From: Daphnia carinata
Taxonomy: Eukaryota
Assembly: GCF_022539665.2 (NCBI RefSeq)
Contig: NC_081333.1
Location: 6,076,001-6,140,000 of the forward strand
DNA length: 64,000 bases
Reading direction: 5' to 3'
In this document: positions 45,309 through 59,700 of the stretch, piece after piece
Position numbering within the stretch: the first letter of the stretch is position 1
Layout: every line of letters begins with the position of its first letter
Program-made: the position numbers and the translations under genes
The notes under the pieces: generated by a model
Database searches by the model: none
Told to the model about the DNA's origin: nothing
What the model saw: the letters and a program-made list of their open reading frames with translations, nothing else

Positions 45309-48300
45309 TTAGGCCTTCTTTAGTAATTGTCCAGCACGTTGATTGGCGATAGATATCCTGTTCTCGTTGGATTCACCCTGTAAATGAAAGTGTAATTAGT
45401 AGGATCGACTTTGAGCCAATGATTAACGAAGTGCCTCTAGCCTACAAGAACTATTATTGCTGTTCTACAACAGCGATTTTCTCCCAAAAGGGAGGAACGC
45501 GACGCGCAAATCGAAGGTTATCGCATGGCAGTTCAATGATTGCATTTTCCCAATATTACGCAGTAAATGGCTACAATATCTCTAAACCGTAACTGTTCCG
45601 ATAGTAGCGTCTGCAAAAGCGGCAAAATACGCAGAAAAAAAAAAAAATAAACAAAATAAAACGGTTAAAACTGCAAAAGAAGCGCCCGTCTATTTTTTTT
45701 TGGAGGGGGGGGATTAAAGTATGTGTCTTAATGTCCGTACTGCACATGTTCGTTTCGTCAATCGGGAGCTTATTTCAGCAACTTGCCAGCATGCTGGCTC
45801 GCTTCCGTGACACGAACGACGTTCGAAGTGCCCTGCACAAGATTATCGCCATACATTTTACCATAAATTTAAATCTGCCATCACATGTTTATAGGATGTT
45901 TAGATATATAGGACCATATGGGATAAAAAAAAAAAGTTGCATTTTGCCATACTTTTTTTTTCCTTTTTTCTTTCTCGCAAAATTTCTTCTTACCTTGGCG
46001 TTGATTCGATCCAGTTGTCTGTTCTGGTTCTCGATTTCTGACCCCATGTCGATGGCCATATTGCGCAAATTACCAATCATGGTGCTCACTTGGGTCATAT
46101 TTTCCTCCATTTCACCTTCTCGAGCATCTTTGCTGATCCTGTTCAAAGATAAAACACAAGCACAAACAGCATCAAGAAAAGACTCAATTGGCAGTAACTG
46201 CTAGTAAGTTCTTATAGGAAGACTACGCCTTACTTGGCAATGTAACCGCCTGCTGGACCAATTCCGTTGCGGTCATCCATGACCCTAGTTGGCTGATTAT
46301 TGACTATTTTACCATCATCGTTGCCTTTCCACGTTCCTTCATCTTCCTTAAATTGCGACGATCTGGAAAAAAGGCCGCAGAAAATATCAATTATTTATTA
46401 TTACGCACACACCCATTCACATTCAAATTCACCAATGCAAAAACAAACAAAAAACAAAACAAAACAAAATCCTTGTTAAGTAACCCCCCTCTCCCGACCC
46501 TACTGCTTACAAAACGAAAAATAATGGAAGGGAAAAGACGTATTTGCTAAAGCTCACTTGTTGCAAGGAAGGACACACAGCCCGCAGCACTTCTCCATGC
46601 CTGCCAGATTACTCTCGGCTTCTTTCATATCCGCATTAATTTGGTCCATACCCTCTTCAATGCGGTCCAGTTGTTCTGTATTTATGTGTTTATCATAAAG
46701 CTTGGATTAACATCAGAGTAATGGTATTATGGCTGAACAGACTGAAGACAAATAGTCATGAACACACACAAAAAAAGCGAAAGTATTAAAATGGAGGAAC
46801 TAAAATGCTAGGCATGCTAAAATTGTCCCAATTTCTCGAGGAAAGCTTGTGATTTTGATTTTAAATGAGATGCAACGCATTAAAAGAACGCATGCAGCTC
46901 TCTTAAAGTATTTTAACATAAATTTTGAAAAAGACTGCACGAGAGATAACCCATGCTCGATGATTAACCAAGCGGTGTCAAGCGATAACAAGCAAAAACC
47001 AATTGGAAACGAAATGGCCTGAGAACAAGATTTGACCCTTCCCAGTGAGATTTGTGCATTAAAAACGAGAGCAAATTGTTCAACTTTGTTACAATACAGT
47101 AAAGACAAACTGAGAATGAACAACAATCTTACCGCCTTGTCCGTGCAAATTTTCAAGAGTTTTGGCACCAACATCTTGACTCTACGGGGGAAAAAAATGG
47201 CAAAACAAAACTCAAAAAGCTATAAAATAAAATAAAAATTTACGAGCAAAACTGAAATTATACGTAACAAATGATAAACGAAAAAAGATAGAACAATACG
47301 GGAAAAAACGACAATACGGCAATGTACTAATACAGCTAGGCATCGGTCTATCAACCGTCGGAGGCAAAAAAAAAAACCCAAATCAAGTTGAACTATCGTG
47401 GCTAATAAGTTATATCAAAATTTATTGTAAAAAAAATGTGGTGAAGGTAAAAAGATGTGGTGAAGGTAAAAAGATGTGGAACGATTCATTTTCTAACGAC
47501 TGACGAAACCAAGCAATGGCGATCTAATGCATCACCTTTCGATTCATTGATGGACACGGCTAAGGATAATAATTGATTCGAGATTGTAATGGGCTTTGAG
47601 GCCGTGCCTTTTTCATCTCAACCCAACAGGCAACCACGAGCATTTATCGTAGCCACAAGTGATAGTTACGTAAAGGAACGAGAGGAAGTTGCTAGCAATA
47701 AATCCGTCGATAGCAATCATGTGGAACTAAATGCGCCCAGTGAAGCAGAAAAATCGCAAAATGCGACAACATGCACGACAACACTAATTCAAGCTAAAAT
47801 GATACAGCTAGATAACAACAATGAAACTTAAAGTTTTCTTTGAACGGCGGCTAACTGATTTTCGATATTGACATTGCAATAAAACGTCAAACTTGGCAGA
47901 AAAGAATATAAATGTTATTGCGCAGGTATGTTCATGTACCTCCTTGGTCATCCAACGCCACAAGTGTCCGAATGCCGGCTTCTTTGCTCTAGAAATACAA
48001 ACAAACAATGGCGACACGTTGGCGTGACAGAAAGACGACCCAAACAACGACATCGGAAACGAAACAAACGCTGTCAAGGCATCCGTGTTTGCTGATACCA
48101 TTTAAAAGTGATATGCAAGTTTCTGCTGCACTCTCTCAAACTTTTTTTTACATTCAGTTTTATCAGTTTACTTCAGAAGTGGTATGATTTGATGCGGACG
48201 TTGGCGAGATACAGAGCAGTGCAGAAATGTCTTGATTTCTCAAATGGTAACAACAATACCTCCACGTTCAATGTTCGGTTCAAGTTTTAACGATGTTCGC

Positions 48301-51300
48301 GCTGTGCGAATACCGAATCAGTACAATGCAGACCCTGCGCGAGTATGCAAAAATCAATAGGGAGCACTAGGCCGTATGATTCGAATGGCTGCACTTTGCC
48401 CTTCTTTTCTTCACGAGCGAAAACTTAGTTTGGGTGGCACAAAACGATGCACCATGGCTGCAAACTTGGTACTTTCCCGTGCGTAGGAGGAGAACACCAC
48501 AGGTGTCACACGGCTCTATTCTACACACGTTTTCTCCCAGTAGTTGCTCGAGAGAACTTCCTTTCATTGAAAGCCATATCTCCGACAAACCGGTGGAACA
48601 TCACTACCCGACATATATACTTTTTAAAACCTAACTTCCCAACTTACCTCTTCGCACAGCAACATCATCCGACGAGTGCTCTCCAACGACTTGAAAAATA
48701 AACAAGAAACATTCATTGATTAATTGATTTTGTAAGCTAGCGATATTGCAAAAATAAGTCTGATTTTCATAACAAAAGCACATTGACAGACGATGGGTTC
48801 ACTTTTTCGCATAAAGAATTAGGGTTGACAAAACTTTTTACGAATACGCCGTGGTCAACTATGAATGGAAAATCAACTAGAGCACCTGAAAATATTGTGA
48901 GGATCCTCATGGACGGGGAAGGGGCGACTTCAATTTCTGTGAAACGTTCAATGAAGATAAAACACGATAGCCTCTAGATATAATCTTGCTATAGGTCAAC
49001 CTGGCGTAGACTTTGTCGGTCAAGGCACGCACTGCTCTAATACAGTGCAAACTAAATTCCAAGTGACGGAATTAGTCACTAAACAAAAAAACAGGCGATC
49101 TTCTGACGGAAATTGAAAAATATAGCCTAGCTTAAGGTACGCTCTTTGAACAAAGGCCGCGAAGCTATTCAGGCGACGTGGAAAATCCATTGAGCAGTGA
49201 AAGAGCGCAGACGAAAGGCAGGCGTAGGTGTCTGTGCGCTACCGAGGAATGATGATAAATTCATGAATGTAGATTAATAAAATAGAAGGGCGTTGGCCTC
49301 GGGAGTAGGCCAACTGTATAAGGCTACATTAGGGGCACTTACGTGCACGGAAAACACGATGACGAAGGTACATGGAAGGATACGACCTCATTGCGTGTTC
49401 AAGGTACAGACAATAAGAAATGACATGGCTAGGGACAGGGAAAAGGCCAACTAAAAAAGAAATAAAATTAAAAAAAAAAAAGTAAGTAAATAAATAAAAA
49501 ATTCCAAAGCGAGTGAATTGCTACGAATATCGTGGTAACGCCGGTTCATCGAAGGAAAATAGGTAGCCGAACAAGACTAGTGACAATGACGAAACAGACC
49601 GACAGGCCAACAAGGCTAGGCGACATTCTGACGTGCTCGCCCAAGCGCATCTTTTGTCTCGCGCCGTTATCGTTGCTTATATCGGCGCCTTTGATATAAG
49701 GCGGAAGGTTATTCCAGCCATGCGAACAAGGCAGAAAGAAGAAAGGCGTTCTAAAAATGGACCAGAGGCGGCTACGGAGACAACCATGGCAAAGAAAAGT
49801 CCTAGAATCAAAAAAGCTAAAAACTAAAAACACACGCACACATAAAAAAAAACTAAATCCTTATGTTCTTTTATCTAGACCGAATGGACACAGCCAATTA
49901 CGGATTGGCAATGGGCTAGATATGTGTCTCACGTCTAATCGTTAACAGCACACCGCCTCCGATCATCTTCGCATTATTAAATGGCCTTTTTTTTCTTCAC
50001 CAACCGATTTGTCATTTCTCTTCACGAGGATGCATTCGAAAAGGAGTGAGAGTATCATTGAGGATTGCATGTTGTGGAAAGAAGCTGATACGTCAACACC
50101 ATCAACGTACAATCAACTGGAAGCAAACAAAGGAATCCCCGAGGTTCAACGTTTGCATGCCCATTAGTACCCACAGCCCACGCCGATTTTCATTGGTCAT
50201 GAAGAAAGTGGCTTGTTAAGCCTACCTCTTACTCTGTGCCATATACTGGGTGGATTGGGTGCGGGGAAAACGAGGTGTGAGATAAAGTGGTATCCATAAT
50301 CACCTCGACGGTGACATCCTCGATGTCTTGCTGGAGCTGATTGGCAAACTGGCGAACGGGTGGGTTGGTCGGTGGGTTCTTGGGATCGGTGGATCCTTTG
50401 ACAATCGAAGAGCCTTTGCTCTTATTACCTGGTGCCGCTTCGACCCCCATCGTCGTCTTGTATGTCGCACAGGATTGATGAAATGCGCTTTTTTTTCAGC
50501 CTACGGTTTTCTAAGTGTCAGACAGCCAGATTCCGCCGACCTCAGATTTCCAGTAGGTTCCCGCTCAAACAACACAGCGCAAACAATCGCTTTGTTCTTG
50601 AAGGACACCGTGAATCCGATGATCAATTGAAGGAAACCTTATCCACAGTGAAGTATCAGTCGGTGTTGGCGCGAGTATCAGTGCAGCAATAGCGATGTTG
50701 ATGGTGAATGGCGACAGAAAGCTAGGACGCACGTGAAGTCACTGGAGTCATCGTTTCCCTTGGTTACGCGATCCATACCTACGGTGACGAAAAGAGGCAC
50801 TTCCACGCGGCTATTTGCAGTACGCCTAGACAATTCTGCCGAGTAAGCGATCTACAGTTTTTTTTCTTTTTTGTTGTGGCTCGAGTTTGACGTCCCAGTC
50901 GCTGTTTAGAGACCAACGTCCCAAAACAGAATTGACTGGCCGACGCCCTACCACCTTTCGCTACACAATTTTGGAGAAAGTCAAACTATTCTTGCTTATC
51001 TGTTTCCTTTTTATTCGATGTAGACTTTCTTTTTTCCTTTTTCTTGTTTTATTCTGTCGTACGAAGAAATAGTCGAGCCAATGGAGGCACCCAAAAACCC
51101 AAGCAAGCGAATGGCATACGATGAAAACGTCAGTTGCGGAGAAAAAGGGTGACGCAAAGCACGCGACCAAACTATCAACCATTGGCCAAAAGTCCAATGG
51201 AGAAACGTTCCAGCCGTTCGTGTTGAGAGTCTGTCCGGGTTTGACCAGCCGTTGCCCCTTCGAACAAGGATAGCGGTAATAACTATCGAAAGACGAACGT

Positions 51301-53759
51301 CACACGCAAAGATAAAGTTGTGTGAATAACAGTTGAATAAACTGACCAACGGTTGGGGAAATACATCAGCGCGTCACACGATAGACGAGAATAGAACGAG
51401 AGAAGAGGGAAGGCTTTGAAGAACGGCAACTTGAGCAAGGTTCATACCATGAACAATACGATTGGTGGGGAAAACGAAGAGTCGCACATAGTGCAAACAA
51501 AAGGCCAAAGCCGGGTAAGCAGGTTCGATAAACTGGTTATTAGAGGTTCCGGCTAGCAGACAGGCTTTTGGCCAATATCGGTGTTGGCGTGAATCAACGC
51601 CAATAGAAACCGACAAAGAAAGACGACAAATTGGCGACTTCTATCTCCGTCAGACAGACGACACACGGTTAAAAGCTCAACTAGTTTGACCAGAAGGGGA
51701 CTTTTGTCAATGCAGAACACAAGACTCCCGTCTTCCATCGGTCGAACGATGGTTTCTTCAGGTGAATGTTTCCATTATGGTTGTCTGCTGATTCTTTATT
51801 TTTTCCTTTCTTTTTTTTTTTTTTTTTTTGCTTGCTCCAGGGATTAGAACCACAAAGAAAAGGCCGAGTTTCTAAGATTGATCCATCCGGTCTCTTATGT
51901 TGCACGAGCTCCAAATGTCTGCGCTAACGGCTGAGGTAGGGTAAGGTAAACGAGAGAGCGTAATCACCAAGGAAGAACGACGTTGATGAGGCTATCACTC
52001 AACAATTCCAATCGACAAAGAGAATGATGCCACCTGATCGAAGACAAGGATGCACCCGAGGAGAGACTAATGAAGAAGACACTGGGGAAGTGTTTGGAAC
52101 AATGGCCGTGCACAAAAATGTGACTGAGCACGTATGTCACGGTCGTCGAACTACGTGACACTTTGGACAGCTCGTCAACGAGCAAGTCACAAGAGGCGGA
52201 GGAGAAGAAGAATAAGATTTTCTTTACTAACTCCCACTTCCTTTTTTTTTTTTTTTTTTTTTACCTTTGGGACGATCGATACGTCTATAATGGCAGTATT
52301 CAAAACAAGCAAGCAGTAAAACAGCCGAAAACTTAACAACGTAAAGTCACGACCTTGACGGTCGATTACAATATCACGTTGGTAAGTAAAACGCAAAAGC
52401 GCTTAAGAAACGTAACAGCACATCTTCGCCTCGCTTCGTTCTTGTCTTTGTTTTTGTTGTTGAAAAATTCAAGTGGAGGCAAGACCAAGACGATGCAGCC
52501 GGTCCGAAACGAAACTGTGCCCTCACTGGAACTTGGTCGGTTAGTACTTATTCTCCGGGACTAAGGATGAGCGGATCGATTCAGGAAGGCGGAAACAGGC
52601 TGCTCCGTAACGGCGCACCTGTCCGACGACGCCGCTAGTCCCTTTCCGTTGCCCTTGCAGGTAAATTGGTTCACACTTGTCCTTCCTTTTCCCGTTTTTC
52701 TCTATCGAATTCGATTTCCTGAAATATGTTTTTAAGTAATTCTCTGTATCCAGAATAATCAGAGACGCCGGTCTGGCCAACTTTGTCCGACTATCAACAG
52801 GCTGGTTTAATTCCTATAGAGTTAGTCAGTCTACGGCGACGGAATGAAGAAGGCGCAAGGTGTAATCGTCAAACTGATGCAGCGCGTTTGCATCGAGTTG
52901 GGCCCGTTTACGCGCACACCTAGCCACAAACGTTAGGACGACGTAAAGGCGGCAAAGGACTGGCAGAAACAATTCAGTCGTCCAGGCACGAGACTTCGAT
53001 GAAAACGCAGGCAAAAGCGACACACAACGCGCCCGCGCGCATCCTGTCTCACGCAGTTATCGGATTTCGAACTATAGTCTGGCGCACTTACGCGCTTTAT
53101 TTTCTTTTACAATTCAGCAAGAACTACGCCGAACGGACTCGGCCGGCCTTTCCTTACAGTCACATGTCGACATTTCACTCAAGCAATATTGTGACTTAGC
53201 AGTGGATTCTCTTGGAATCAATCTTGACACTCTAGACGCAGGCACACTTTTAGCAGGTATTGTTGGGGAAAAAAATGGCGAAAACTGACTTCTGTGCAAC
53301 GGTCGCACAGACACATGGTTACATATAACTGGTGCTTGTTTACGCGCTTGGCTGACATATGGGATAAAATGTCAGCGCACAGTCACTTACGTATAACCGA
53401 TCAATTTATATAGTGGATATAACAGGCGGTATCGACTCCTACGCGCATTCTCCCGTATGGTTGTGAGTTTCAATTTCGGTGGTGAAATGGAACGCGCGCT
53501 TGCCTTTTGAATGTTAGTCACCTCAAATGTCCGGGTGGAATCATTGACCGTTCTGGTAGTTGCGCGATTCTATGACATGTTTCTCCGTTATAAACGTTAT
53601 AATGTACTTGGACAGGTAGCATCGGCTAAAGTGAAACCATCGTCGTCTAATGGAAAAAAAATGGACTGAACACGTTACCTCGTCGGTGACTTGATTGGAT
53701 TTCATCTGCAACTCCTGCAGTTCGGTCTTGGGAGCACCATTTTCCGCTGCGGCTGCCAT
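45309..53759 (-). CDS. SNAP25: Synaptosomal-associated protein 25; canonical-like isoform exons 53759-53679, 48689-48648, 47988-47940, 46675-46558, 46362-46234, 46138-45994, 45377-45309
   Basis: [97 protein letters not shown]|...|[70 protein letters not shown]. All introns GT-AG with consistent phases. Confidence 0.97.
45770..45832 (-). CDS. SNAP25: SNAP-25 alternative terminal coding exon ([20 protein letters not shown])
   Basis: TGTGCAG acceptor, phase 0. Aligns without gaps to the distal terminal exon (G-x-SN-xx-R-xxx-A-x-Q-x-AG-x-LLK). Confidence 0.85.
   Translation of the reverse strand, partial: GTSNVVRVTEASQHAGKLLK
47133..47181 (-). CDS. SNAP25: SNAP-25 mutually exclusive exon B ([16 protein letters not shown])
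   Basis: 49 nt, CCCGTAG acceptor, G|GTAAG donor. Same length and phase as 47940-47988, with homologous translation. Confidence 0.88.
50304..50450 (-). CDS. SNAP25: Putative SNAP-25 alternative first coding exon (MGVEAAPG...[16 protein letters not shown])
   Basis: ACGATGG start context with an in-frame upstream stop; 49 codons ending GAG|GTGATT (phase 0). [11 protein letters not shown] parallels [11 protein letters not shown] of the 53759 exon. Confidence 0.65.
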
Positions 53760-56700
53760 TTTTAAATGTATCTTTTGCGGTTAGTCACCTGCACGAAACA
53801 TAAAATTACGAAGAGATTAGAATTTGAAGAAGACAACAACAAAATATAGGTAATCCAAACTGATAGATTTATTCTTATTTCCGACAACGTGCACTTCAAG
53901 GCATGGATACTATGGAGGTGTAAGACTAAAATTTTTCTCATCCGGCAACGCGTGCGTAAGTACCAAACATGGCTGCCATCCTGGTATCCTTTTGATGCAA
54001 AATTGCAAATATACTCGAGGCGGTCAGTACCACTACGATAGTCATATTCTGTACTTAGAGCCTCGTTACTGAATGAGGCAAAAAGCAAAAATTTATGGTT
54101 GGATGTCTCTTTACATTTAGTTCTTGGTTCCTCCTTCCGCTACCTTCCCTCCCGGTAGCCAAGCAAGCCGTCTCCTATAGCCCCAACCTCTTCTCCGCCT
54201 CTGTCTCTGGCTGACGGAGGTCGCAAATGATATCGCAAATTTATCAAAGTGGTCTGAGTCAGAATGTTTCAATCCACCGGTGGGGATGATCGGTGATGCG
54301 CATGGTACCACGCGAACCGCGAAAGCTGCACGCAAGGCTGGTTAGGGTTTAGTAGATGCTCTATGGTGAGCGAAGGAGACAGTGACACGAAACAGATCTC
54401 TTTCATCTTTTTTCTTTTCGTCTTTTATGCAAAAACTAATTAACTGCACTTAGAATCAATGTGCAATTGCAACAATGCATCATTTTAACGTATCGAAAAG
54501 ACTTCAAGTAACTATCCATAAGTTCCTTTTTTTTCTGGTTATACAGAACGCAAAACATCGACAACACAATGGTATTGACGCCAGCTAGTTCTCGTGAGCT
54601 AGCTCACAGGCAAAGAATGAAAAACGTTGGCAGGAAAGGCAATTTAGTGGGAAATATGATATTGTGTTAAGTGACTATATAACGATTTTTCTACCATCCC
54701 AAGTTGCCAGCGCTCTGATGTCAGTCAAAGGCCACCTAGCGATAGCAACTGGCGTTTACTTGAAAAAGCACATGTTCCGCTGTGCAATGGCGCCGTTATT
54801 GATCTACAGGATACTATGAACAGCACGATCTTCCTTTATCAACATTTTTTTAACACCTTCTAGCTCTACAGCGTCTCAGAAAATGGGGAAACTGGACTTG
54901 TTTGAAAAGTCAAATTGTGGGGGACGGCCAACATTTCAAGTCTTTTTTTTTAGAGCTCAAGTTGATCCAATCTTTTATTAATGGGTGATTCTCAAACGGG
55001 GAGGTTGACGGAAAATTCACGCGGGAACATTGGGGGAGTGGTAGCCAGAAGCGTGCAATGTAGGCTCTTATTGATTTTCATTGATCCTCGCCTCGCCTCC
55101 AGTTGATCGTTCTTTGGCATCATTGTGAGGCGTCTACGCGAAGGTCGGCCCGCATTCATCCCAAAGTCGCATCCCCCCCCCCCCGTTGTGGTCTTTCCAC
55201 GCCCTTTATCTGGCCAACAAATACACAGGCGCACAGCCGAACAATATTAGATCCAGCGCGTACATCGACAGTACCGGCCTCCCATCCAACACCCTCAAAA
55301 CGACGCAAACTGGCGGCTAGCTTGCCAAGTAGAGCTGCGAAGATGGCGGTGCCAAGCAGATGGATTGCCCCGATTGTGGTACATCGACATGTGTACAAAC
55401 TTGGCCAGTTCAGCCACCTCAATCCCATGAAAGAATTAGAAATCAAGGAAAAAGAATAAATATGTCAAATTACACTGCATGAAAAAAAAATATATATAAA
55501 TGTAGATATAAACGAGCATATCCCGCTGCAAGGGAAATGGATCGATACAAGAAAGAAATTGAAATGGGCAGTGAAATCCGTAGAAGCCTGACTGCAATTC
55601 TTTAACATTTTAAATAGTGACAGCTTTCAGCTTTACCTTGTAAATTGGCTAACCTGCTACTTCGCTTCTAATTGTGAACCAAATTAACGGCCTGGCGAAA
55701 TTTTGGTGATCATTCTCCGGAAACGTCAATACTTAAGCGCATTTCAAGGACCACTAAATAATAGCTGCTGCCAGGCAGCATTGTGCCATCGATCAGTGTG
55801 GTTAATAGCCCCGTTAAAAACTAACGTTCTTAACGCTGCATCTTCAAAAGAAAAAATAAAACAAATAGGGACAATGGTCGATTTCAGATTCGAACAAGAG
55901 TCGGTGCGGAAAAAGTGGTAAACTAAACTAAAATCACACCATCCGTCTTTTGAATAATGCCCCCTTCCATCTCTTACAATTGCTGAATGCCGTGGTAGAA
56001 GCCATTTTGCCTGTTTTGACTGGAAACCCAACTGAATTCACTCGAAGGTTTTCCAGGAGATCAAATCTTCGTTCATTTCGTGATGCTGTTTCACACAACA
56101 AGGAAAACTTCACATCTTGGCCCGTTTGGCATCTCATTGGGTTTCTATTTGTCCTTTGTTTGACTGCAATCCAAATGCAAACTATGCTAATACAAGCGTG
56201 GTTTTATCACGCTGATGGGCGGGCGGCGAAAGGCAAACACTGGAACCTACGATGAAGCAGCGAAAGAGAGCTATGCATGAACTTAACAAAGAGATTGCAA
56301 AGGCAAGAACAACTGCTCCAGATGGAATGGGGGGGGGGGAGCAGCATAAGAACTCAGTAGTACCATGCGGATCAATAGCTGGAAAAAAAAGGGGCAAGCT
56401 ATCGCATTACTGCTTCGTGTTGAATGTGTGTACTAAGCCCACCATAAGATCTGCTCACCTCTTGTTAGTCAGCATAAACAATGAGCAGTAACTTGTTTTT
56501 CTGGACAACAAGATGAATTAACTAGGTAAAAAGACATGGAAATCATGAAGTTTCAAATCGTGTGCAATTGTAGCGCTGATCCCTTGTGCCTTAGCCACGG
56601 ATTTTTATCAATAGACCATGGCGTTAACGAATAAACAGAAAACACAAAGACCCATCAACACCAAGACACGAACCTGGACCACAAGATATGACGTACAAGA

Positions 56701-59700
56701 ATGACAATTATGGGTTGTTTTGCTGAAGAAAGAATACTTTTGTCCATCCTAGGAGTATTACGGAGTACTTGAATGATTACTAAACTTTAGTCCTGTGGAC
56801 TGACGTTCATGTTGCTGGGGACAGCATCAACTTTATGGAGTAGCAGCAACTGCCTTAAGCACTTCAATATAAATACGCTGCAAAAACTGCTACTGTGCGG
56901 TTGAAAACGAAGAAAAAGCTTGTGGGTTGAAGCTATTGAAACTACAAAGCATATACCCACTCAAGTTAATTCGCTAAGTCAAATCGCCAACACAATGAAC
57001 AGAACTTCAAAAATAAAACGGAAAAAAAGGAAGAAAATTGCTTCTTTTTACAATTTTAACAGTAACACAGCCATTGTGCATGGAATAAAAAAGGAGAGTT
57101 GTGGGAATATTATAAAAAACTATCTTAGGAATATTAATAGCAGTTGTCTGCAATGCAATTGACTGAGATAATCCATTACTATCCGGCGTGCGTGCAATAG
57201 TGCATTTTAATATTTTCGATGCCACAAATAGACGACAGGCATTCCGACAAAAATTTTGTCAACCAATTCAGTTTGAATAAAACATTTGTTGATGCTAATA
57301 TGACCAGTTAGTCCACAAAATGCATACGAATTGTCCGCCAGGTACTGAGAAGGAGGAATTCGCACTAATCAATCTCTTGAGACGGAAGATATTTCGCGTA
57401 GAGATGAAAAATTCGTATGGTCGTCAATAATCACTGGCCTATATACACACGAATTAAATTTAGTGACGCCACATCGTTGGTATCACACTTGCGGCAGGCG
57501 AAGTTCGATTGACACTAGAGTTTGGTCAATCTTACCTCACGCAGTTGAAGTGCGGTCAACTAAGGACAGACTGTTTTTATGGTAAATTTCACTAAAACTA
57601 GCCGGAAAATATGTCTTTATCGTTAGAGCTCTACCGAGTGATCAGTAAGGTGGTAGACAGCAGTCTACCGCACGACGCTAAGTAATTAGTGGAAAAATAG
57701 GAAAATTCATTTTCATCTTCATGAAAATAAAACATAAAAATTAAAATCCGGCATCCGGTGCGACTGGTTGTTGATACGAACGCACCAGTTTGCCGTTTGA
57801 TAAACTCGCATACAATCGTAATACCGCTATCGGCCATAAATATATAAAAATTAATTTTTAAAAACGATTTTGAAGAGGAAGTTTTAAAGAACGACATGAG
57901 AGCCTATGAAAGGCGAAAAACGCAACATATTTGACTATGGAAAAAGAAGTGCGCCGAAAAAAGCGTATTTCCGATACTCATTGGTCACTTCTCTGCGTCA
58001 CGATGATATTCTTCCCACACGTAATCATCCGAACCCATTTCTACTGTCACGTTCACTTTGCCCAAGCTCGTTTATTCCATCCGTTATCACGCGAGGCTGA
58101 AATGGAGTAATAATGAAGGGCAAAAAAATTATCACTAGTTTGAAAGATATTTTTCTCGAATCGAATTGCATATCGTTGCATTTCAACTTTCCAAAAGTAA
58201 TTTGAAAGAAAAACCGATTTAACGGATGCCAAAATTTCTCGGAAAGAAAATAGAGTTAAGTTTAAACAAGTGACATGAAGAGCCACGACGTAAAATATTC
58301 TGGTCCCAGAGTCATACAAAAAGAATTCCATCAATTTCAATCAATGTGTACACCTACCATTATGAAACAATAGAACAAGGCATCGACTAGATTTACTGTT
58401 CCACACCCCATCAATGGGCCATATTGATTAACAAGTAAATAAAAAAAATTTGTTCTTTGCTATCAAAACTCAAAAATGGTCTATCGTATTTACATCTCAA
58501 GTTCTTTTTCTGGTTTTTAAGAGATGTTTTTTCTCGAGCTTCAGAATGGAACAAAGCAATTTAAGAACTGTAATTCACTTAAACAAAAAATATGATAATG
58601 AAGGATAATTCTCTTGTTTAGAAGTTCCTGTATGAAACAGAACGATCAACAATATATTAGATTAAGTTAAAAGTCAATAAGAATAAGAGATACCAACACC
58701 TGAGAAAATCTTGACAAGGAACTGTTGTGAACCATTATCCCTAATGCTGCTCTCGCTGATAGGGTACTGTAATCTGGTAGGGTCTAACTTTAAAAATGAT
58801 ATCTTATGACAGAGGCCTTGAAAGAGCGCATCTTTGTTTTCTAAAACTAAAGTCAGAGAGAGCTGGTAAATCAGAACTTCATGCTTTACAGCATTAAACT
58901 TTAGCTTTGCCTAAACAAGACAATGCAGGCAGTTGCTGTTACTATGACTACAGAACTTTTGACTGCACAGAAACAGATGAATGCTAACCGCGTAAAAAAC
59001 AAAGCTTACCTGAATTGTGAATGAAATCGAAGACGAAGGTTTCCGGTGTTTTCGTTCTCACACAACTAAATACGATGGACACTTTAGAAGTGGCTACGAC
59101 CGACCAGTACGTCACCGCCCAAGCAGACGTAATAATGAAGCGCCACGGAGGATAAGTATAGGAGGGTGCAAACTATCGATTGAGTATACAGCGCCTCATG
59201 TTGCTCTCGGCAGTTAACAATAACAGCGAAAGAGAGGAAGCGCTTCTTGGTAGTCGCCGACACAGTGTGCATACATATAGGAGCATATTGCTCCTTGTAT
59301 TTACTTCCTTGAGACAACCGAAAGTCCGAAACTGTATGGGGTGTACTGAGTGCAGACGTGTAGTATGGTATAGTATGACTAGTACCGAAGAAATGTGAAA
59401 ATCGGAGAAATTATTTGTATTTCTTTTACTTGCAACAAAAAATAATCTGAATTGGCGTTGATTTCTCCTGCCACTACGCAAAATTGAACGCCTTTCGCGA
59501 AACTATTTTAAAAATGTCAAAGCGTTTCACTAGATTGTTTTCCAACGACATGTTGATATAGCACTTAATTTAAATTGCTTTTTTTGGAATTGCTTATTTC
59601 TTTTTTTTTTAATTTGACTAGTTACTGTGAGAGGATATCTTTATTTCTGAAGTTCTCAAATTTTCTATTCTACAAGACTGCCTTTAAATTGCATATATTA

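What the first reader, a model, noticed from the sequence alone, without database searches (positions are those of the whole stretch)
45309..53759. One SNAP-25 locus appears to encode a second, paralog-like SNARE through three sets of duplicated exons
Besides the canonical-like exon chain there is a divergent alternative at three positions: first coding exon (50450-50304), SN1 internal exon (47181-47133) and C-terminal exon (45832-45770). The Cys-rich palmitoylation exon, linker and most of SN2 are shared. Up to 8 combinations are possible. Coordinated use of the divergent set would yield a protein differing at the N-terminus, part of SN1 and the C-terminal zippering end. That would parallel the SNAP-25/SNAP-23 (vertebrate) or SNAP-25/SNAP-24 (Drosophila) split, but achieved by splicing rather than gene duplication. 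Vertebrate SNAP-25a/b duplicate the 118-nt Cys exon, which is single here. The functional interpretation is inference.
Basis: partly seen in the sequence, partly recalled or inferred. Interest (0 to 1): 0.85.

Follow-up and report, generated by a model that had tools for sequence, protein, structure and literature searches.

The report
Swappable SNAP-25 exons in water flea
This water-flea SNAP-25 gene has alternative first, middle and last coding exons that are chosen separately rather than as one set, and the common middle alternative replaces the residues where the calcium sensor synaptotagmin docks in mammals, so one gene likely supplies both a nerve-type and a general secretion version of the protein.

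Summary
The exons are real and the coordinates right. This is Daphnia SNAP-25: 4 of 8 exon combinations equal RefSeq D. carinata isoforms. RNA contigs of a related Daphnia splice both first exons and both 49-nt middle exons. The alternative last exon is conserved in crustaceans, but its junction was not among the rows shown.

The coordinated 'second paralog' reading fails. The divergent middle exon 3b is the major form (about 60-100% of junction depth), while first exon 1b is 0-12%; public models mix the exons in 7 of 8 ways.

Exon 3b keeps the five SNARE core positions but changes K40, V48, D51 and E52, the synaptotagmin-1 docking face. Across 113 pancrustacean species-exon rows, type a is identical in 32 of 32; type b keeps both acids in 2 of 66. 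Two gut-labelled RNA sets show only 3b. Likely role (inferred): 3a synaptic, 3b sensor-uncoupled general secretion.

The isoforms are in automatic annotations, this scan noted the same middle-exon pair on two other genomes, and ten paper searches found no description. New variant of a known kind; moderate interest.

The parts
59010..59093 (-). Non-coding upstream exon spliced to exon 1a (5' end approximate)
   Evidence: Joint 53763-59008 in run X11 with 85 letters on the short side; GT donor at 59009
53679..53759 (-). Exon 1a coding part (canonical N-terminus, 27 aa); exon begins at 53788 after an AG
   Evidence: junction to exon 2 in 4 of 4 runs
50304..50450 (-). Exon 1b coding part (alternative N-terminus, 49 aa, ends before the SNARE core); likely from its own promoter near 51340
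   Evidence: junction to exon 2 in 2 of 4 runs, depth 12.6 and 11.4; contig runs to 51338 with no splice joint shown; 100% identical in D. magna, 76% in D. pulex
48648..48689 (-). Exon 2, shared (rat residues 25-38)
47940..47988 (-). Exon 3a, 49 nt (rat residues 39-54); keeps K40, L47, V48, D51 and an acid at 52
   Evidence: junctions on both sides in 2 of 4 runs; peptide identical in 32 of 32 pancrustacean rows
47133..47181 (-). Exon 3b, 49 nt, mutually exclusive with 3a; K40Q, V48E, D51H, D52G among 9 changes; core S39, G43, T46, L50, Q53 kept
   Evidence: junctions on both sides in 4 of 4 runs
46558..46675 (-). Exon 4, shared, single copy, 118 nt, Cys cluster (counterpart of vertebrate exon 5)
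46234..46362 (-). Exon 5, shared linker
45994..46138 (-). Exon 6, shared, most of the second SNARE motif
45770..45832 (-). Exon 7a, alternative last coding exon (20 aa and stop), minor; no canonical poly(A) signal before 7b, so likely an upstream acceptor sharing the 3' end
   Evidence: same type in D. pulex, Artemia, crayfish, crab and barnacle models; junction not among rows shown
45309..45377 (-). Exon 7b, canonical last coding exon (22 aa and stop)
   Evidence: junction from exon 6 in X11 at depth 145; loose ends at 45993 in X5 and X9 read by eye as 7b

Best explanation
This is the Daphnia SNAP-25 gene with three separately chosen modules (two first exons, a mutually exclusive 49-base exon pair, two last exons), and its main switch is exon 3a/3b, which likely makes either a synaptotagmin-coupled synaptic protein (3a) or a sensor-uncoupled protein for general secretion (3b). 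Shown: the exons, open frames, splicing of 1a, 1b, 3a, 3b and 7b in a relative, dominance of 1a+3b, and the residue pattern (helix core kept, sensor face replaced). Inferred: that 3b still zips into a normal four-helix SNARE complex; that it binds synaptotagmin weakly and so gives less calcium-triggered and less clamped fusion; that 3a is neuronal and 3b non-neuronal. Exclusivity is likely kept by reading frame and decay, since using both or neither exon gives an early stop. Exon 1b likely reflects a second, cell-type-restricted promoter and alters only the tail before the SNARE core. Exon 7a is a minor C-terminal variant with the core positions kept.
For:: 3b share of exon-3 junction depth 100%, 100%, 59-63%, 73-76% in X1, X5, X9, X11; 1b share 0, 0, 2%, 12%. 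X1 and X5 are labelled invertebrate gut metatranscriptome, from two studies, and show no 3a junction; the D. magna 1a+3b+7b protein is on 40 contigs, the 1a+3a+7b protein on 2; exon 3 aligns without gaps to rat residues 39-54. PMC8967716 (passages) lists K40, D51, E52, E55, Q56, D166 as important and K40, L47, V48 as at or near the primary interface. PMC11494337 (passages): D51N/E52Q severely impairs evoked release and raises spontaneous release. (113 rows, classes set from positions 39-50 only): type a 32 of 32 identical; insect type c 15 of 15 with D51/E52; type b 66 rows, 64 species, 57 peptides, both acids in 2 of 66, K40 in 0 of 66, V/I48 in 7 of 66; entropy 0-0.47 bits at the five core positions against 2.7-3.6 at 48, 51, 52. 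In the subset found with the exon-6 query, blind to exon 3, 2 of 11 distinct b peptides keep both acids; double inclusion or skipping gives a stop 415 or 344 nt before the last junction; the 3a-3b intron is 758 nt, too long for steric exclusion.
Against: No tissue-resolved data: 'gut' is a record label I could not verify, and contigs drop rare variants, so absence of 3a is weak. Depth is one figure per contig and the runs come from a relative at about 90-95% identity; only 4 of 24 listed runs (4 of 8 studies) were laid. Type b still has an acid at 51 in 18 of 66 and at 52 in 11 of 66 rows, and E55, Q56 and D166 lie in shared exons, so the interface is weakened rather than removed. Vertebrate SNAP-23 keeps D51/E52 and supports calcium-triggered secretion, so non-neuronal does not imply loss of the acids. 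Many b rows came from a search whose query carried 3b, and rows are related species, not independent events. No binding or fusion test was possible. Net charge of the two exon peptides is equal (-1).
Confidence: 0.6

Rival explanations
1. Both exon-3 forms act in neurons or neuroendocrine cells, and the switch tunes release mode or developmental stage (evoked against spontaneous or peptide release), as vertebrate SNAP-25a/b do.
For: D51N/E52Q shifts release from evoked to spontaneous in neurons (PMC11494337). SNAP-25a/b are a developmental switch (PMC2581893). SNAP25 splicing changes in butterfly brain after pheromone exposure, exon not stated in the passages seen (PMC12857021). Insects carry a third exon type.
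Against: 3b is the only form in two gut-labelled sets and the major form in the other two runs. Its surface varies freely across species while 3a is invariant, which fits loss of a partner better than a tuned synaptic contact.
Confidence: 0.25
2. One reading: exons 1b, 3b and 7a are used together and make a second, paralog-like SNARE.
For: The 1b+3b+7a protein is a RefSeq model in D. magna, D. pulex, D. pulicaria and Artemia. All three alternative positions recur in Artemia and in the crinoid Antedon. A rare cell type making only this form cannot be excluded.
Against: 1b can account for at most 0, 0, 3% and 10% of 3b transcripts. The 7a region has depth 3.6-14 against 145-495 for shared exons, and in X1 and X5 its contigs run on into the upstream intron. 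Models in hand mix the exons in 7 of 8 ways in D. pulex and Artemia, although such models are partly computational.
Confidence: 0.07
3. Exon 3b is a redundant duplicate under relaxed selection on its outer face with no distinct function, and 7a is mostly unspliced intron in Daphnia.
For: Surface positions of type b are highly variable. 7a contigs look unspliced and its junction was not among the rows shown. Drosophila SNAP-24 can replace SNAP-25 at synapses (PMC8377282), so such variants can be interchangeable.
Against: 3b is identical in five Daphnia species and b-type exons occur in 64 pancrustacean species with the core intact. 7a-type exons with a shared signature occur in branchiopods, decapods and barnacles.
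Confidence: 0.08

Closest known systems
Vertebrate SNAP-25a/SNAP-25b (mutually exclusive exons 5a/5b; PMC2581893, passages)
   Same: Tandem duplicated, mutually exclusive exons recoding part of the first SNARE motif of one SNAP-25 gene; nine residues differ in both cases.
   Different: The duplicated exon here is the one before (residues 39-54, 49 nt); the exon-5 counterpart is single. The changes fall on the synaptotagmin face, not in the Cys region. That paper dates the 5a/5b duplication to bony fish and reports none in Drosophila.
Automatic RefSeq isoform sets of arthropod SNAP-25 (D. carinata XP_057367028/029/031/032, D. magna XP_045024493-498, D. pulex, Artemia, aphids, decapods)
   Same: The same exons; 5 of 8 combinations equal stored proteins exactly.
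   Different: These are unexplained gene models, with no statement on use, coupling or function.
C. elegans ric-4a/ric-4b (PMC12084653, passages)
   Same: SNAP-25 gene with two alternative first exons used differently between neuron types.
   Different: Homology of Daphnia 1b to ric-4b was not tested; the passages seen mention no exon-3 or last-exon choice.
SNAP-23 (vertebrates) and SNAP-24 (Drosophila)
   Same: Likely analogous job, a non-synaptic plasma-membrane SNARE. 3b shares K40Q and a change at 48 with SNAP-23.
   Different: Those are separate genes. SNAP-23 is identical to SNAP-25A at the interface except K40Q, L47I, V48T, so it keeps the acids that 3b loses. No SNAP-24 sequence was identified here.
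Cockroach SNAP-25 cDNA variability (Johard et al. 1999, PMID 10327594)
   Same: Title reports sequence variability of an insect SNAP-25; may be an early sighting of these isoforms.
   Different: Only the title was seen, in a reference list; the paper is not held.

Membership tests
SNAP-25 family (Qbc SNARE) | PF00835 above its curated cut-off | tested here: met
   5 of 5 isoforms, about 68 bits against 25
SNAP-25 family (Qbc SNARE) | Two SNARE motifs and a Cys cluster colinear with solved SNAP-25 | tested here: met
   P0154 aligns over 1-207 to 6mdm_H, E 1.4e-65; triple-alternative P0143 E 1.1e-59
Mutually exclusive tandem duplicated exons (exon 3a/3b) | Same length and phase, sequence similarity above chance | tested here: met
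   49 nt each, 26 of 49 nt, p 5e-5
Mutually exclusive tandem duplicated exons (exon 3a/3b) | Each joined separately to the same flanking exons; both or neither is not productive | tested here: met
   Four junction types seen, no 3a-3b or skip joint among the 15 rows shown; early stops. One D. pulex model does contain both exons (P0150)
Vertebrate SNAP-25a/b splicing event | The duplicated exon is the 118-nt Cys exon | tested here: not met
   Single copy in 59100-44000
Paralog-like isoform made by coupled exons | 1b, 3b and 7a are used together | tested here: not met
   1b at most 0-10% of 3b transcripts; a rare coupled form is not excluded
Paralog-like isoform made by coupled exons | Genome lacks a separate SNAP-23/24-like gene | not testable with these tools
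   No genome held. No divergent Daphnia paralog was named among the best 120 rows (of 718 and 790 hits), which is not exhaustive
Duplicated first exon | 1b is a copy of 1a | tested here: inconclusive
   22 of 54 nt, 5 of 18 aa; not in the top 4 of the locus scan. Scores to other species' alternative first exons (2-24) overlap those to canonical ones (up to 27)
Duplicated alternative last exon | 7a is similar to 7b and conserved as a coding exon | tested here: met
   11 of 20 aa, 31 of 63 nt; same type in other crustaceans
Duplicated alternative last exon | Exon 6 is spliced to 7a in RNA | tested here: inconclusive
   Not among the 15 of 16 joint rows shown; present only in gene models
Synaptotagmin-uncoupled SNARE | Reduced synaptotagmin-1 binding or calcium-triggered fusion | not testable with these tools
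   Only inferred from residue mapping

The most novel reading that the evidence does not exclude
For the whole history of insects and crustaceans, one SNAP-25 gene has spliced the calcium-sensor docking face in or out: an invariant synaptic exon and a freely drifting, acid-poor exon that serves non-neuronal secretion, doing by one 49-base exon what vertebrates do with SNAP-25 and SNAP-23. Some flies appear to have exported alternative isoforms into separate genes.
Probability: 0.4. Interest if true: 0.68.

Novelty: new variant of a known kind. Interest (0 to 1): 0.42.

Why it matters
If the inferred role holds, exon 3b is a natural, highly expressed counterpart of the engineered D51/E52 and V48 mutants used to probe the synaptotagmin-1 primary interface. 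It would allow a test, in an animal and without changing gene dose, of whether that interface separates triggered from general secretion. It would also explain how arthropods could cover both jobs with one SNAP-25 gene, and it warns that the most abundant whole-body SNAP-25 transcript in Daphnia is not the canonical one. The value is limited because the isoforms are already in public automatic annotations and the function is untested.

Tried and rejected
Whole-genome search for a paralog: no genome held. Coupling across exons cannot be read from contigs, because the shared exons are longer than the assembly word; only depth bounds were used. Further hidden copies of exons 1, 2, 3, 4, 5, 6, 7: none above background in 59100-44000, so there is no insect-type third exon 3 here. 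Homology of 1b to alternative first exons of horseshoe crabs, molluscs, a brachiopod and a crinoid: suggestive but inconclusive. RNA pairing as the exclusion mechanism: longest complementary matches between the flanking introns are 9-11 nt and mostly A/T, rejected as unsupported. Initiator-like TCAGTY at 51345-51340, near a contig end at 51338: the motif occurs 71 times against 68 expected and another contig reaches 51414, so only a weak hint. Structure and complex prediction were not run: no Daphnia synaptotagmin or syntaxin was in hand. A search for fly SNAP-24 gave divergent fly copies, none named SNAP-24. Ten paper searches found no description of the arthropod exon-3 cluster in the listings; subscription papers are mostly missing. 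Hatje and Kollmar 2013 on Drosophila mutually exclusive exons and Johard 1999 are not held and may bear on novelty; one search opened an unrelated paper from a wrongly recalled id. No supplements were read. Earlier-findings searches by sequence and by place gave nothing.
Full report
What is there. The minus strand of 59100-45309 holds a SNAP-25 gene. Its coding exons are 1a (53759-53679), 1b (50450-50304), 2 (48689-48648), 3a (47988-47940), 3b (47181-47133), 4 (46675-46558, the Cys exon), 5 (46362-46234), 6 (46138-45994), 7a (45832-45770) and 7b (45377-45309). All internal exons have AG/GT ends and all 8 combinations give one open frame. Four combinations equal RefSeq isoforms of Daphnia carinata and a fifth equals a D. 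magna isoform, so the window is Daphnia SNAP-25 and the isoforms are already in automatic annotation. Five isoforms pass Pfam PF00835, and the two tested align along their length to solved SNAP-25.

Are they duplicates? Exons 3a/3b are both 49 nt in the same phase with 26 of 49 nt identical (p 5e-5). Exons 7a/7b share 31 of 63 nt and 11 of 20 aa. Both pairs stand clear of background in a scan of the locus. The first exons share 22 of 54 nt (p 0.01) and 1b is not among the top four hits for 1a, so duplication is not shown for that pair. Comparison with alternative first exons of other phyla was inconclusive.

Splicing. Of 24 runs listed (8 studies), four from four studies were laid. They are contigs of a related Daphnia at about 90-95% identity. 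Junction depths for X1, X5, X9, X11 were: 1a-2 140, 127, 558, 82; 1b-2 0, 0, 12.6, 11.4; 2-3a 0, 0, 215, 40.5; 2-3b 254, 224, 371, 111; 3a-4 0, 0, 201, 38; 3b-4 230, 179, 284, 122; 6-7b 145 in X11, with loose ends in X5 and X9 that read by eye as 7b. The 6-7a junction is not among the 15 rows shown (1 hidden). The 7a region is covered at depth 3.6-14 against 145-495 for the shared exons, by contigs that in X1 and X5 continue into the upstream intron, so its use is at most a few percent and cannot be told from intron retention. Contig depth is a rough measure and contigs drop rare variants, so zeros are not proof of absence.

Coupling. Exon 3b makes up 100%, 100%, 59-63% and 73-76% of exon-3 junction depth; 1b makes up 0, 0, 2% and 12% of first-exon junctions. 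Hence 1b can be on at most 0, 0, 3% and 10% of 3b transcripts. The common protein is 1a+3b+7b; in D. magna it is recorded on 40 contigs against 2 for 1a+3a+7b. Gene models in hand cover 7 of 8 combinations in D. pulex and Artemia, 6 in D. pulicaria, 5 in D. magna and 4 in D. carinata (two clusters were listed in part, 15 of 17 and 15 of 16 members). The divergent exons are therefore not a coordinated set, though a rare triple-alternative form may exist and is among the models.

What exon 3 changes. It aligns without gaps to rat residues 39-54. The core positions S39, G43, T46, L50 and Q53 (layers -4 to 0; layer numbering recalled from the SNARE literature) are the same in 3a and 3b. Nine outer residues differ, among them K40Q, I44A, V48E, D51H and D52G. 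PMC8967716 (passages) names K40, D51, E52, E55, Q56 and D166 as important for the synaptotagmin-1 primary interface and K40, L47, V48 as at or near it. PMC11494337 (passages) reports that D51N/E52Q severely impairs evoked release and raises spontaneous release. Among named pancrustacean proteins chosen by hand (113 species-exon rows; unnamed, fused and non-pancrustacean records left out), classed on positions 39-50 only, type a is identical in 32 of 32, an insect type c keeps D51/E52 in 15 of 15, and type b (66 rows, 64 species, 57 peptides) keeps both acids in 2 of 66, K40 in 0 and V/I48 in 7, while its five core positions stay nearly fixed. In the subset found with an exon-6 query, 2 of 11 distinct b peptides keep both acids (3 of 22 proteins did not parse). 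Twenty-four species have two or three forms in hand. The rows are relatives, not independent events. Mollusc, horseshoe-crab and crinoid alternatives mostly keep the acids, so the acid-poor form looks pancrustacean.

Mechanism. Shown: an exon pair that keeps the helix core and rewrites the sensor face; an invariant 3a and a variable 3b; only 3b in two gut-labelled RNA sets of different studies and both forms in two other runs. Inferred: 3a serves synaptotagmin-triggered release in neurons and 3b serves general secretion with weak sensor coupling (confidence 0.6). Against this, the gut label is unverified, E55, Q56 and D166 are in shared exons, and SNAP-23 keeps the acids. Using both exons or neither gives a stop 415 or 344 nt before the last junction, and the 758-nt intron between them is too long for steric exclusion, so frame and decay likely enforce exclusivity; a D. 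pulex model (P0150) is in fact a double-inclusion product read from an out-of-frame ATG inside 3a.

The other two positions. Exon 1 ends at residue 24, before the SNARE core, so 1b changes only the N-terminal extension. A contig runs to 51338 with no splice joint shown, which suggests its own promoter. C. elegans ric-4 has alternative first exons used by neuron type (PMC12084653, passages). Exon 7a keeps the six C-terminal core positions (G, N, V for I, A, A, L), has no canonical poly(A) signal before 7b, and belongs to a type also modelled in Artemia, crayfish, a crab and barnacles. Alternatives at all three positions are also modelled in Artemia and the crinoid Antedon; whether these share one origin was not resolved.

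Known or new. The kind is known: vertebrate SNAP-25a/b arise from duplicated exon 5 (PMC2581893, passages). This is another exon with another target surface. Ten searches of the held library showed no paper on the arthropod exon-3 cluster; a 1999 cockroach paper on SNAP-25 variability (title only) and Hatje and Kollmar 2013 could not be read. This scan had noted the same exon pair and the synaptotagmin-face reading in an arthropod and a sea urchin; I had reached that reading, and those notes are not independent support. Verdict: real, conserved, already annotated, apparently undescribed in function; new variant of a known kind, interest 0.42.

Noticed in passing
P0406 (Stomoxys), P0411 (Sarcophaga), P0439 (unnamed); Divergent SNAP-25-like fly proteins (the Stomoxys one on a different contig from its main gene) have tails whose best match is a dipteran alternative last exon rather than a canonical one (52 against 41, 46 against 32, 49 against 28); exon 3 is nearest type a in P0411 and ambiguous in the others. 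Hint that fly paralogs arose from mixed isoforms; none is named SNAP-24.
   Followed up: partly
P0150 (D. pulex X8); window 47951: The 173-aa model starts at an out-of-frame ATG inside exon 3a joined to 3b (3 mismatches to the window-derived frame). Drosophila X3 models P0282 and P0284 begin in the same way by eye. Likely decay-bound double-inclusion transcripts annotated as proteins.
   Followed up: yes
window 49791-48690: RNA contigs at depth about 10-14 cover this intron stretch in X1 and X5, in X5 running unspliced into exon 2; one D. magna model (P0153) starts here. Possible third start site or retained intron; the 1a-2 junction has only about half the depth of 2-3b in these runs.
   Followed up: no
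window 45993-45833; P0011, P0012, P0014, P0144, P0145: In several relatives the intron between exon 6 and 7a reads through in frame into 7a. In the window it is 161 nt and out of frame, and the length filter of the search favours such ORFs, so probably chance.
   Followed up: partly
P0147 (D. magna XP_045024091): A near-identical second SNAP-25 model with 3b and a damaged exon-2 end, on a contig of the same length as the main gene; possibly an assembly duplicate.
   Followed up: no
P0207, P0209, P0205 (fused gene models): Models that fuse two exon-3 copies give the order a-b (mayfly, wasp) and b-c (moth), matching a-b in Daphnia; suggests one old cluster a-b-c.
   Followed up: partly
window about 63750-60980, minus strand: Upstream multi-exon gene that by eye resembles a kelch-repeat protein; not tested.
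   Followed up: no
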